From Escherichia coli (GTDB lineage: Bacteria; Pseudomonadota; Gammaproteobacteria; Enterobacterales; Enterobacteriaceae), in the NCBI RefSeq assembly GCF_044324785.1, contig NZ_CP172128.1: 64,000 nucleotides of DNA; one strand, written 5' to 3'. Position numbers: made by a program. Numbering within the stretch: the stretch's first letter is position 1; each line of letters starts with the position of its first letter. Of this stretch, positions 57,501-60,500 are shown in pieces.

Positions 57501-60500
57501 GCCAGCCGGTTGGCAGCAGCTGGCGTATCCAGTCACTGACGGTGCGCTGACGTGCTTCACGTAAATAAACGACGGATGAGGGACCGGGCTTACCGGTCAT
57601 AACCAGTGCAGACAGCGGTGTGGCCTGAAGAAGCGGGCGGGGAGGCAGTGCGGTACTCTGGCTGCTGACAGTGGTTGAGGGTGTCGCCGTTGTTGTCGGA
57701 CGGGGCGGTGTCACAGGGCGGGTCACCGGTGGCGGAAGCAGACGTTTTTGCGTATGGGTGATAATGGCAGCACTTTCGCGAATTTGTCCGTCGACGAACA
57801 CCAGAGCCGGAGGCGTGGTATCCGGAACAGGCGTGGCATTAAATGCCGTACAGCCGCTGAGTAATGACGGCAGAAGGAGTGTCAGTGATTTCTTTTGCAT
57901 AGAATATAATCCGGTATATTACGGGTTACGGTATAAGACAGGTGGCGGTTAACTGGCCTTCAGATGAATATCATTTCATCGGGTTATTGATGATGAACCT
58001 TAAAAATCACAGAGGTGATGCATGATAAAGAAGATGTGGCGTTATTTACGGCAAATTGATAAGTATGAATTGCTGCAGCAGGTGATTTCAGTACATGAAG
58101 TGGAACTGCTCAGGAAAATGATGACAGATTCATTATTAGGGTGCTCAGTAGGATATGTGTTTTCGAAAATACTGAAGATATCCTTTCTGCGTTTTATTCA
58201 GTCTGAGGGGGGATGGGATATTATTACTTACTTTTTGTGGATGCTGGGAATACTTATTGTCATGGTCGCGCTGTTTATCTGGATGTGCGCCGCTGTATGC
58301 TATGAGCTTCGGATGTATAAAATAAAAACAGGAAGGGAGAACGATATATTATTCTGGGTGTGGATTCTTCTTTTTGATGTCGCGGTTGTATTTTCGCTGG
58401 GTAATGTTATCTGGTGATTATGGGTTCAGTGACATATGGAAAAAGATAAGTGCGAACATTGATACTGAAGAATAATATATCCAGGAATAGAAAAACATGA
58501 ATTTCGGAGATGGTTTCTTCTGTCTCCTGTTTTTCAGGGGAGTCTGTGGGTCAAATGTTATCAGCGTCATTAAAGGATACCCTTTCATAAGAATAAAAAT
58601 ATAGACGCATAAATGAGCGTAAAGAGGTAACCTGTCCTGCCAGAACAGAATCATCATGATGACGGCAAGATGAAATGTCGTTACATTGATATAATAAAAC
58701 CAGCTGTATTTACGCAGATACTGTTGGATATTCACGCTGTCAGCATGCGGTTCTGGTGAACAATTTATGCAAAAACAGAAGAAAGAAATGATGATGAACA
58801 CGGTCAGAGTGACCGGTAATACAGTCACAAGCAGAAAGAGTATGGACATAAAAATATCTCCGTCAGGATAGTGTGATTATTCCTTTATGGTTCCATAACC
58901 CGGCGTAGCTCCGTCGACTGGTTATAATTTTATCCGGGACCTGGCTTTAAGGGGTAATGCCACCTCTTTCCATTCACTACAGCTTCCGGGAATACGTTCT
59001 GTGCGTCGTATTATTCGTGTGTTCTGGCATACAATAATCAGGGCATTGTCTGCCGTCTGAAAAGGCATAATCGCAATGTTAATATCTTCTGTTGCCGGGA
59101 TACAGATGACTTTCTTTTCACATGTGTTGGTGTATACAACAACTCTGAATTTTTCTGCGGACATTTTCAATCCTCTTTTAAGCCAGAATATCCCGTGAGG
59201 GCATTCTTTGTGAAAAAGATGCCGGAAAAATTCCGGCACGGGGATTAAACCTGTTGTGGTTCTGAGTTATCCGGAGTGGTTACCGGTTCGCTGACATCCG
59301 GAACCTTTTCCGGGGCAGGCATGACCAGTGGACGTGTCAGGGCTGTAAGTCCTTCACCGGATAAACCCACCTCTTTCAGCAGGGAGTCGATGAGCGGAGC
59401 CTGTGTACGGTAAGCCAGAGCGGCGGTTACTGCCTGTTCAGCGAGATTTCCGCCACTTATGTCGGTTGTTGCTGTTTTACCGCGGGTAACACCGCCATTC
59501 AGACCATCCACCTGAATGATTTTAATACCGTCAATGGATTTCATTGGTTCTGTGGACTTCTCTATGACGGCAGGTAATGCATCCAGCAGGGCAAGACGGA
59601 AGCGGAGGCTGGTCTGCTCATCCGAAAGCACGTTAATGGCATCGTTCAGTGCGCGCTGTGCTTCTGCTTCTGCCAGACCTTTCTGACGGGTGGCCTCCGC
59701 CAGTTCAATAATTGCTGCTGCCTGGAGTTCGGCTGCTTCTTTTTCAGCCTGTGCGCGAACCGTCAGTTCAACCGCTTTCGTTTCAGCTTCCTGAGCAGCA
59801 GCAATCAGGGCAACCTGTTTGGTACGGTCGGCCTCCGCAGTCTGGCGGGTGGTTTCCACATCCTGCTGGGCCTGTACGGCCTCAGCCAGTGCTTTACTTG
59901 CCCGGGCTTCTGCCTGTGACTGCTCTTCCGATTTTGCCGCCACGGCAATGGCTCTGGCCTGGCTGGCGATTTCGGTTGCCTGCTGTTGTTCAATTTCCCG
60001 TATGGCCACTTCCCGTTCGGCTTCGACCTGGCGGGTACGCACTATCTGCTGTCGTTCGATTTCGGCTTCCTCTATCTTACGTTCAGCCAGAATTCGCGCG
60101 GATTCTGCTTCACGACGTCGTTCAGCTTCAATAGCAGCAATACTGGCACTCTGCTCTGCCGTACGGGTTTTTACCCGTTGTTGTTGCTCCAGAGTCATGA
60201 AGGCTTCCTGCTGTTCAATCTCCAGACGTCGGGAGAGTGCATCCCGGTTTTTTTCCCTGATGGCCACTTCAACATCCTGCTCAACTTCGTTGCGTTCGCG
60301 GCGACGACGTTCTGTTTCCTGGGTCAGAAGGGTCAGGCCTTCAGCATCAAAGGCATTGTCAGGATTAAAATGTACCCGTGCAGTCTGGTTGAAACTTGTC
60401 AGCGACACACTTTCAAGCTCCAGACCGTTTTTGGATAAGTCTTCCGCAACGGTGTTCTGCACACCCTGAACAAAGTTCTCGCGGGCATCCTGTAAATCCT

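What the first reader, a model, noticed from the sequence alone, without database searches (positions are those of the whole stretch)
58022..59239. AT-rich island with two convergent small polytopic membrane proteins upstream of pilL
Genes 58022..58417 (+) and 58418..58849 (-) have abutting stop codons, encode 131- and 143-aa proteins with 3-4 TM helices each, and have markedly lower GC than the flanking pil/tra genes, suggesting separate acquisition. Small membrane proteins at such positions are often immunity, exclusion or abortive-infection factors. A third small ORF (58922..59239) follows the flotillin-like gene.
Basis: seen in the sequence. Interest (0 to 1): 0.45.

Follow-up and report, generated by a model that had tools for sequence, protein, structure and literature searches.

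The report
Orphan membrane-protein pair in plasmid pilus operon
Two small membrane-protein genes facing each other sit in a swap-prone slot of the thin-pilus operon of an IncK2/Z-type resistance plasmid; they are real, always occur together, resemble nothing known, are not needed to build the pilus, and their function is still unknown.

Summary
ORFs 58022-58417 (+, 131 aa, 3 predicted TM helices) and 58418-58849 (-, 143 aa, 4 predicted TM helices) have abutting stop codons. They lie in a 39% GC stretch between pilI and pilL of an I-complex (IncK2/Z-type) conjugative plasmid. The "third ORF" is pilI itself (Pfam PilI, E 8e-32; true start probably 59164).

Both membrane ORFs are real genes. Each has diverged homologues (28-39% identity) at the same position in related plasmids, with dN/dS of 0.3-0.5. 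Each is found in 149 PLSDB plasmids with the same organism breakdown.

The 143-aa protein is one unit of a family that also occurs as a fused two-unit 295-aa protein. The 131-aa protein has a 141-146-aa counterpart whose DNA cannot be aligned to it, although the flanks are 92% identical.

Neither protein matches any Pfam, NCBIfam, PADLOC, PHROG or PDB entry, nor R64 PilJ/PilK. An exhaustive profile search of 1.84 billion proteins with the 131-aa family found only that family.

About two thirds of sister plasmids lack the pair. One of these, pCT, has an experimentally functional thin pilus. The pair is therefore an accessory cassette in the pilJ/pilK slot. An exclusion- or immunity-type role is plausible but unproven.

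The parts
58022..58417 (+). C131: 131-aa protein encoded against the direction of the pil operon. It has a basic cytoplasmic N-terminus and 3 predicted TM helices. Conserved motifs are LLR..MTDSLL.CS.G.VF and EGG.
   Evidence: ORF and translation. SD-like GAGGTG lies 4 nt before the ATG. Homologues of 141-146 aa at 31-39% identity, E about 1e-13, occupy the same position and orientation in other plasmids. Annotated as a hypothetical protein in RefSeq. The AF2 model has pLDDT 66 and four helices.
58418..58849 (-). U143: 143-aa protein with 4 predicted TM helices on the operon strand, 72 nt downstream of pilI. It is one unit of a family that also occurs as a fused two-unit 295-aa protein.
   Evidence: ORF. 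GGAG lies 8 nt before the ATG. It aligns to both halves of the 295-aa protein (E 1e-11 and 1e-7). Alleles at 90-92% identity give dN/dS of 0.26-0.56. No feature is annotated under the match in the listed window-type PLSDB/RefSeq records.
58922..59164 (-). pilI (80 aa). The mechanical ORF extends to a GTG at 59239.
   Evidence: PF10623 PilI, E 7.8e-32. Annotated as PilI at these coordinates in near-identical plasmids.
58002..58416 (.). Allele-specific cassette. This DNA has no detectable similarity to the D295/C146-type slot, although both flanks are about 89-93% identical.
   Evidence: blastn breakpoints against L003, L004, L008, L009, L010, L012 and L014.
57901..58001 (.). Conserved spacer between the pilL start and the C-gene start. 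It is kept at about 92% identity in all B/O/K/Z slot variants, including those that lost the pair. The C131 promoter and pilL translation signals presumably lie here.
   Evidence: Flank homology ends at 58001 in every comparison. L004 keeps a 34-codon remnant of the C146 N-terminus. No consensus sigma-70 promoter was found.
57901..58417 (-). 517-nt untranslated stretch of the pil-operon transcript, antisense to C131, lying between the U143 stop and the pilL start. It is C-rich and G-poor.
   Evidence: No - strand ORF of 40 aa or more lies here. The - strand RNA is C 26.5% and G 13%, with C/G of 1.5-2.6 in 78-nt windows across the gap.
58506..58527 (+). Terminator-like hairpin with a T-run, 89 nt past the C131 stop and inside the U143 coding region.
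   Evidence: Consensus scan. The number of sites found is not above the shuffle expectation.
59219..59239 (-). Terminator-like hairpin directly after the flotillin stop codon and upstream of pilI.
   Evidence: Consensus scan. Homology with flotillin-less plasmids ends at 59218.
56830..57900 (-). pilL (TcpQ-domain lipoprotein), the downstream flank.
   Evidence: PF10671, E 1.6e-16. Annotation.
59245..61586 (-). Flotillin (YqiK-like) and YqiJ/NfeD-like pair, the upstream context between traC and pilI.
   Evidence: Pfam Flot, Band_7, YqiJ_N and YqiJ_OB.

Best explanation
Shown. The two ORFs are a coupled pair of inner-membrane proteins found only in I-complex (IncB/O/K/Z-type) plasmids. They form one allelic version of a swappable accessory cassette. 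The cassette fills the pilI-pilL slot of the thin-pilus (type IVb) operon, the place where IncI1 plasmids carry pilJ and pilK.

U143 lies on the operon strand and is presumably made with the pilus proteins. C131 lies on the opposite strand and must have its own promoter. The pair is not needed to build a working thin pilus.

Inferred (committed guess). The pair works as a membrane-level specificity or protection determinant of the exclusion/immunity type, tied to pilus expression. The U-type units sit in the inner membrane while the pilus machine is active. The separately transcribed C protein partners or counteracts them.

Side effect of the architecture. The pil transcript must cross 517 nt of untranslated, C-rich antisense RNA before it reaches pilL. 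This should make pilL-V expression sensitive to Rho and to convergent transcription, and dependent on the NusG/RfaH-like TraB.
For: - Real genes: protein-level homologues exist although the DNA cannot be aligned. dN/dS is 0.26-0.56.
- Coupling: each ORF family is found in 149 PLSDB plasmids with the same organism breakdown, all conjugative MPF_I. Every intact architecture seen keeps a U-type gene tail-to-tail with a C-type gene: U143/C131 here, and D295/C146 with an 8-nt overlap in L003, L008-L010 and L012-L015.
- Restricted distribution: an exhaustive HMM search of 1.84e9 representative proteins with the C family found only its own two clusters plus fragments. The U family gave only E. coli plasmid proteins and nothing in viral or GTDB genome contigs. 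In E. coli complete genomes all 388 matching places are on plasmids and none on chromosomes.
- Accessory status: about 149 of about 462 plasmids with this pilL type carry a pair. pCT has neither the pair nor PilK, yet its pilS knock-out lowers liquid mating (PMC4083329).
- Specificity-determinant signature: C131 and C146 are 31-39% identical between flanks that are 92% identical. Unit copy number varies from 1 to 3. Gain and loss is patchy.
- Precedent for a small polytopic immunity gene convergent to its partner: colicin Ib and its immunity gene on ColIb-P9.
- Transcript gap composition, and TraB as a NusG/RfaH paralogue.
Against: - No similarity to any exclusion, immunity, Abi or defence family. 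hhalign against the colicin Ib immunity protein gave nothing.
- No toxin, bacteriocin or obvious donor-side partner gene is adjacent.
- The plasmid already carries the ExcA/TraY entry-exclusion system typical of I-complex plasmids (annotated in pCT).
- dN/dS is below 1 throughout, so there is no sign of positive selection.
- No consensus promoter was found for C131.
- The models are too weak for fold inference: pLDDT 51 and 66, and Foldseek E above 3.
- The function rests on context and population pattern alone.
Confidence: 0.3

Rival explanations
1. The two proteins are non-homologous replacements of PilJ/PilK. On this view they are non-essential accessory subunits or modulators of the thin-pilus inner-membrane assembly platform, tuning the efficiency or timing of pilus production.
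For: - They occupy exactly the pilJ/pilK position.
- U143 is on the operon strand with a short gap after pilI.
- R64 PilJ and PilK are also small TM proteins from a 37% GC slot with no Pfam family.
- The families occur nowhere except in this operon.
- A QYLQQY hexapeptide is shared by R64 PilJ and the 295-aa protein.
Against: - There is no significant similarity to PilJ or PilK. hhalign probability is at most 6.5%, and the block-shuffle z-score is at most 1.8.
- Sister plasmids with Pil proteins more than 90% identical lack the pair, and pCT still uses its thin pilus.
- Deep allelic divergence and copy-number change are hard to explain if the partners are conserved Pil proteins.
- C131 is on the wrong strand for an operon subunit.
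Confidence: 0.25
2. The main role of the segment is regulatory rather than protein-based. The convergent C gene and the long untranslated antisense gap act as an attenuator or switch (transcriptional interference, antisense RNA, Rho termination) that limits costly pilL-V expression. The encoded proteins are then secondary.
For: - Convergent genes share no terminator between them.
- The pil mRNA carries a 517-nt untranslated gap with C/G of about 2, against 33 nt between pilK and pilL in R64.
- The 100-bp spacer and the C-gene 5' remnant are retained even where the pair was deleted.
- Transposon insertions in pilI and in the slot gene of pMS7163B raise surface conjugation, with logFC about +3 (PMC10286972 supplement).
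- TraB is NusG/RfaH-like.
Against: - Both proteins are conserved at the amino-acid level across alleles whose DNA is unalignable. The products are therefore under selection, not just the act of transcription.
- No promoter was detected by consensus.
- There are no expression data.
Confidence: 0.15
3. The pair is a membrane toxin with an antidote (an addiction or abortive-infection module) carried as selfish cargo.
For: - It is a two-gene pair of small membrane proteins.
- The overlapping convergent transcripts are reminiscent of antisense-controlled toxin loci.
- Where the pair is missing, both genes are lost together.
Against: - The pair is found in only one genomic context, unlike mobile TA or Abi modules.
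- No PADLOC or TA family hit.
- pMbl536 keeps an intact U143 while 298 bp of C131 are deleted. This is weakened by an IS66 insertion in pilI upstream, which may silence U143.
- Paralogue fusion and 1-3 unit arrays are atypical for toxins.
Confidence: 0.1
4. The genes are decaying or functionless leftovers of a variable region, kept only by linkage.
For: - The pair is absent from two thirds of related plasmids.
- Constraint is relaxed relative to pilI and pilL: dN/dS of 0.3-0.5 against 0.05-0.3.
- Truncated copies exist in L008, L011 and L021.
- U143 has no annotated feature under the match in the listed PLSDB/RefSeq records.
Against: - The ORFs are intact in about 100 window-type plasmids.
- dN/dS is clearly below 1.
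- Motifs and length are conserved between alleles at about 30% identity.
- Both genes have Shine-Dalgarno-like sequences.
Confidence: 0.1

Closest known systems
R64 / ColIb-P9 pilJ and pilK (IncI1 thin-pilus operon genes between pilI and pilL)
   Same: They occupy the same slot between pilI and pilL. They are also small TM proteins from low-GC DNA (0.37) with no Pfam family. The region is already known to differ between R64 and ColIb-P9 and among IncI1 plasmids (PMC8004404).
   Different: No significant sequence or profile similarity. pilJ and pilK are both on the operon strand, whereas C131 is convergent. From my own knowledge of Yoshida et al. 1999 (paper not held, not checked here), PilK is required for the R64 pilus. 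This pair is dispensable by comparison with pCT.
Entry-exclusion inner-membrane proteins of conjugative elements (F TraS, SXT/R391 Eex, IncI ExcA)
   Same: They are small, hydrophobic, polytopic inner-membrane proteins encoded inside transfer operons, not needed for transfer itself. They exist as sharply diverged alleles between otherwise similar elements. These properties of TraS and Eex are from my own knowledge.
   Different: No sequence similarity. The pair sits in the pilus operon rather than the DNA-transfer (tra/trb) operon. The plasmid family already has ExcA/TraY. No donor-side partner was identified. Exclusion was not tested.
Immunity proteins of pore-forming colicins (for example colicin Ib immunity on ColIb-P9)
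   Same: Proteins of about 115-180 aa with 3-4 TM helices, encoded on the strand opposite to the partner gene, tail-to-tail with almost no gap. On ColIb-P9, cib is at 8294-10174 (+) and imm at 10192-10539 (-).
   Different: No homology (hhalign P 0.1-0.6; no Pfam hit). The neighbour is another small membrane protein, not a colicin. No lysis gene or SOS-type operon is present.
X118-type slot gene (111-118 aa soluble Cys/His-rich protein, labelled 'pilK' in pMS7163B)
   Same: It is an alternative occupant of the same slot in IncB/O/K/Z plasmids. In some plasmids it sits beside the D295/C146 pair.
   Different: It is soluble, unrelated in sequence and absent from this window. Transposon insertions in it raise surface conjugation in pMS7163B.

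Membership tests
PilI (Pfam PF10623), for the third ORF | Match to the PilI profile above the gathering score | tested here: met
   109.1 bits against a cut-off of 25, E 7.8e-32, covering profile positions 2-75 of 77. Annotated as PilI in near-identical plasmids.
R64 PilJ / PilK | Sequence or profile similarity to R64 PilJ (150 aa) or PilK (196 aa) | tested here: not met
   blastp gives no hit below E 0.05. hhalign probability is 0.1-6.5%. The Smith-Waterman block-shuffle z-score is at most 1.8. tblastn of both ORFs found no IncI1 plasmid.
R64 PilJ / PilK | Located between pilI and pilL | tested here: met
R64 PilJ / PilK | Encoded on the pil operon strand | tested here: inconclusive
   U143 is on the operon strand. 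C131 is on the opposite strand.
R64 PilJ / PilK | Requirement for thin-pilus biogenesis (PilK) | not testable with these tools
   Indirect evidence only. pCT lacks the pair and PilK but shows pilS-dependent liquid mating (PMC4083329).
Entry/surface exclusion proteins (TraS, Eex, ExcA, TrbK) | Sequence membership in a described exclusion family | tested here: not met
   No Pfam or NCBIfam hit at E 0.1 or better, apart from sub-threshold noise (FtsX, 17.4 bits against a cut-off of 25.5).
Entry/surface exclusion proteins (TraS, Eex, ExcA, TrbK) | Small polytopic inner-membrane protein with sharply diverged alleles between similar elements | tested here: met
   3 and 4 predicted TM helices. C131 against C146 is 31-39% identical within flanks that are 92% identical.
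Entry/surface exclusion proteins (TraS, Eex, ExcA, TrbK) | Reduces DNA entry into cells that express it | not testable with these tools
   Needs mating assays.
Pore-forming colicin immunity proteins | Homology to Cai/Cei-type immunity proteins and an adjacent colicin gene | tested here: not met
   hhalign against colicin Ib immunity gives P 0.11 and 0.6. No Pfam hit. The neighbours are U143 and pilL.
Known anti-phage defence / Abi systems (PADLOC-DB) | Match to any PADLOC model | tested here: not met
   No families matched at E 1 or better for either ORF, their homologues, or the flotillin and YqiJ proteins.
Toxin-antitoxin modules | Occurrence as an autonomous pair in varied genomic contexts, or a match to TA families | tested here: not met
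   Found only in the pilI-pilL slot of I-complex plasmids. No family hit.

The most novel reading that the evidence does not exclude
The U/C cassette is a previously unrecognised self-protection or exclusion system dedicated to the thin pilus. In this reading, allele-specific inner-membrane proteins are switched on with the pilus. They block what the pilus would otherwise let in: I-pilus-specific phages such as If1, PR64FS or I-alpha, or unproductive mating with cells that carry the same plasmid type. The counter-transcribed C gene would couple protection inversely to pilus expression.
Probability: 0.12. Interest if true: 0.7.

Novelty: new variant of a known kind. Interest (0 to 1): 0.33.

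Why it matters
IncK2/Z, IncB/O and IncK1 plasmids are major carriers of blaCMY-2 and blaCTX-M in poultry and human E. coli. Their thin pilus sets mating efficiency in liquid and in the gut.

This work shows that the pilI-pilL slot of these plasmids is a hot spot of cassette exchange. One common cassette, present in about 100 complete plasmids in PLSDB, encodes two uncharacterised membrane proteins. One of them (U143) has no annotated feature under the match in the listed database records.

If the pair controls exclusion, phage sensitivity or pilus expression, it would affect which plasmid lineages can coexist and spread. If it does nothing measurable, it is still a clean example of orphan genes kept as deep alleles inside a conserved operon.

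Tried and rejected
- Structure route. AlphaFold2 on the shallow family alignments gave pLDDT 50.8 for U143 and 66.1 for C131. Foldseek against PDB with the C131 model gave only E above 3. The afdb50 library was unavailable. No fold inference was drawn.
- Sequence route. Pfam, NCBIfam, PADLOC, PHROGs and PDB profiles gave nothing.
- PilJ link. A shared QYLQQY hexapeptide and a similar MS.LF N-terminus suggested that U143 might be a remodelled pilJ. Shuffle tests (z at most 1.8 with local composition kept, 35 of 500 shuffles reached the score) and hhalign (6.5%) do not support it.
- Inverted repeat. A perfect 13-nt inverted repeat straddles the gene junction (58343-58355 and 58469-58481). No counterpart exists in the D295/C146 loci, so I treat it as probably chance.
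- Rfam. No RNA family in 57500-59600 at E 1 or better.
- Promoter scan. No consensus promoter for C131, and the counts are not above shuffles.
- Phage or chromosomal origin. Scans of viral contigs and GTDB genomes found no relatives.
- Link to the flotillin/YqiJ pair. Rejected, because the U/C pair occurs with and without them.
- Papers. Yoshida 1999 and Sakai & Komano 2002 on R64 pil genes are not in the held library. Statements about the PilK requirement rest on my own knowledge.
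Full report
**Context.** The 3' third of the window is the regulatory and thin-pilus region of an I-complex conjugative plasmid, read on the minus strand.
- The gene order is traB (NusG/RfaH-like, 62659-63366), traC (61853-62518), a YqiJ/NfeD-like gene (60966-61586) and a flotillin gene (59245-60939). Then come pilI, the two ORFs of the finding, pilL (56830-57900, TcpQ domain), pilM, pilN and pilO.
- The 1.3-kb segment is 97.6-99.9% identical over its full length to the best-matching records. These are plasmids typed IncK2/Z, mostly from poultry E. coli.
- It covers at least 80% of the query in 56 records of 52 complete E. coli genomes. All 388 matching places are on plasmids and none on a chromosome.

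**Observation.** All coordinates are correct.
- The + ORF (131 aa, here C131) stops at 58417. The - ORF (143 aa, here U143) stops at 58418-58420.
- Hydropathy and the positive-inside rule give C131 a basic cytoplasmic N-terminus and three TM helices. U143 gets four TM helices, with a strongly basic loop at 106-116. The AlphaFold helices agree.
- GC is 0.38-0.39, against 0.53-0.59 in neighbouring genes. Much of the drop is at codon position 2 (0.28-0.31), reflecting Phe/Ile/Leu/Tyr-rich proteins. GC3 is 0.47, against about 0.60 in pilL and pilN.
- Two ORFs of this size did not arise in 1000 shuffles. The second-longest shuffled ORF reached 112 aa at most.
- The third ORF is pilI (PF10623, E 7.8e-32). 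Annotated records start it at 59164. The upstream extension overlaps a terminator-like hairpin that follows the flotillin gene.

**The slot is variable.** A distant blastn search shows about 460 plasmids whose pilL and pilI flanks are at least 90% identical to the window. Only 98 of them match across the middle. Fetching representatives showed several architectures:
- pilI > U143 > < C131, then pilL (this window).
- pilI > U143 > D295 > < C146, then pilL.
- D295 > < C146 without U143, preceded by X118 in L010, directly by pilI in L003, and by another small membrane ORF in L009.
- X118, a truncated U143, then D295 > < C146.
- X118 alone, with a 34-codon remnant of the C146 N-terminus.
- The IncI1 arrangement pilI > pilJ > pilK > pilL.

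All versions have GC of 0.37-0.41. Against the window, flank homology always ends at 58001. On the other side it ends either at 58941 or exactly at 58417, the junction of the two stop codons. The C131 cassette (58002-58416) has no DNA similarity to the C146-type slot. Variation of pilI/J/K between R64 and ColIb-P9 and among IncI1 plasmids is already on record (PMC8004404).

**Two orphan families.**
- U143 aligns with both halves of the 295-aa protein (28% identity over 128 aa, E 1e-11; and 27-32% over 80-130 aa, E 1e-7). D295 is therefore a tandem fusion of two U units. The invariant positions include LP in TM1, YL...WF...N, and a C-terminal NP.
- C131 aligns with the 141-146-aa convergent proteins (31-39% identity, E about 1e-13). 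They share the invariant block LLR..MTDSLL.CS.G.VF and an EGG loop.
- Among closer alleles, dN/dS is 0.26-0.56 for U143, 0.28-0.49 for D295 and 0.25-0.51 for C146. In most comparisons it is 0.05-0.29 for pilI and pilL. Both families are thus translated genes under moderate constraint.
- tblastn finds each ORF family in 149 PLSDB plasmids with the same breakdown: 145 Escherichia, 2 Salmonella, 1 Shigella and 1 Klebsiella, all conjugative. I infer that these are the same plasmids.
- Neither family matches Pfam, NCBIfam, PADLOC, PHROGs or PDB sequences.
- A profile of the C family, scored against 1.84 billion representative proteins, recovered only its own two clusters and fragments.
- The U profile found only E. 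coli plasmid proteins. It found nothing in IMG/VR or in one genome each of 100,044 GTDB species.
- Structure prediction was too uncertain to use.

**Relation to pilJ/pilK.** The position is the same, but blastp, hhalign and shuffle-controlled Smith-Waterman scores show no significant similarity to R64 PilJ or PilK, or to the variant IncI1 proteins. A shared QYLQQY hexapeptide with PilJ is not significant. R64 PilJ and PilK themselves have no Pfam family, so membership can be judged only by direct comparison, and that comparison fails.

**Dispensability.**
- About two thirds of plasmids with this pil backbone lack the pair.
- pCT (IncK1) has only the X118 gene in the slot and no PilK. Inactivating its pilS lowers liquid mating (PMC4083329), so its thin pilus works without U, C or PilK.
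- In pMS7163B the X118-type gene is called pilK by position. Transposon insertions in it and in pilI increase surface conjugation (PMC10286972 supplement).
- One plasmid (pMbl536) has lost 298 bp of C131 while U143 is intact. An IS66 insertion in pilI upstream may silence U143 there.

**Consequences of the architecture (inference).** Because C131 is antisense, the pil transcript has 517 untranslated nucleotides between U143 and pilL. That RNA is C 26.5% and G 13%, which is the composition expected of a Rho loading region. In R64 the pilK-pilL gap is 33 nt. With no terminator between the convergent genes, the two transcripts must overlap. TraB upstream is a NusG/RfaH paralogue. Expression of pilL-V is therefore likely to be sensitive to Rho and to C131 transcription. 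This was not tested.

**Interpretation.**
- Firmly shown: this is a coupled, plasmid-lineage-restricted pair of orphan inner-membrane proteins. It is one allele of a recombining accessory cassette in the pilJ/pilK slot, and it is not required for the pilus.
- What it does is not shown. The C alleles are deeply diverged between near-identical flanks. The number of U units varies from 1 to 3. Presence is patchy, and the pair occurs only in this operon. I judge this pattern closer to a specificity or protection determinant (exclusion/immunity type) linked to pilus expression than to a structural subunit. That judgement rests on pattern alone, and I give it about 0.3.
- A PilJ/K-like modulator role (0.25), a mainly regulatory role (0.15), a toxin/antidote pair (0.1) and functionless remnants (0.1) remain open.

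**Verdict.** The finding is a moderately interesting uncharacterised variant of a known variable region, not a new kind of system on present evidence.

Noticed in passing
window 59245-61586; L011 3673-3853; L018 (pCT) 46457-46861 and 46852-47910: The YqiJ/NfeD-like and flotillin (YqiK-like) pair between traC and pilI looks ancestral to this plasmid group and has been deleted repeatedly. A flotillin-less plasmid keeps a 181-bp internal flotillin fragment at 100% identity. pCT keeps the 3' end of the flotillin gene and the 5' end of yqiJ.
   Followed up: partly
window 59219-59239 (- strand): A 9-bp-stem hairpin followed by CTTTTT lies directly after the flotillin stop codon, inside the traB-to-pil transcription unit and upstream of pilI. 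Homology with flotillin-less plasmids ends at 59218.
   Followed up: partly
window 51685-52931 (- strand): A second lower-GC stretch inside the pil operon lies between pilP and pilQ. It holds two ORFs with hydrophobic C-terminal segments (146 aa and 224 aa) and no Pfam family. The 224-aa ORF has GC 0.43 and the 146-aa ORF 0.55. In R64 and pCT, pilP and pilQ are adjacent.
   Followed up: partly
L004 1798-2133, L005 1728-2084, L010 1430-1786, L008 2137-2505: An alternative slot gene encodes a soluble 111-122-aa Cys/His-rich protein (CPVC motif) with no family hit. It is labelled 'pilK' by position in pMS7163B, where transposon insertions in it and in pilI raise surface conjugation (logFC about +3).
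   Followed up: partly
window 58418-58849 (- strand): U143 has no annotated feature under the match in any of the listed window-type PLSDB/RefSeq plasmid records, although its 295-aa paralogue is annotated as a hypothetical protein.
   Followed up: yes
window 58343-58355 and 58469-58481: A perfect 13-nt inverted repeat straddles the junction of the two convergent genes, with one arm in each coding region. It has no counterpart in the D295/C146 loci, so it is probably chance.
   Followed up: yes
L009 (NZ_CP024887) 1631-2140: In one IncFIB/IncK2 plasmid, pilI and the flotillin pair are replaced by a 169-aa two-TM protein directly after traC. The D295/C146 pair is kept.
   Followed up: no
L019 (R64) 16333-16785 against L003 2106-2993: R64 PilJ and the 295-aa protein share the hexapeptide QYLQQY just after a TM segment, and a similar MS.LF start. 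The similarity is not statistically significant.
   Followed up: yes
window 63350-63650: The lowest GC of the window section profiled (50-64 kb), 0.35, lies just upstream of traB. It is presumably the promoter or regulatory region of the traBC-pil unit.
   Followed up: no
L017 (NZ_CP172175) 4206-8317: A near-identical plasmid carries a lasso-peptide-type cluster (ABC transporter, B2 protein and two hypothetical genes) next to the replicon. It was not checked whether this lies in the window.
   Followed up: no
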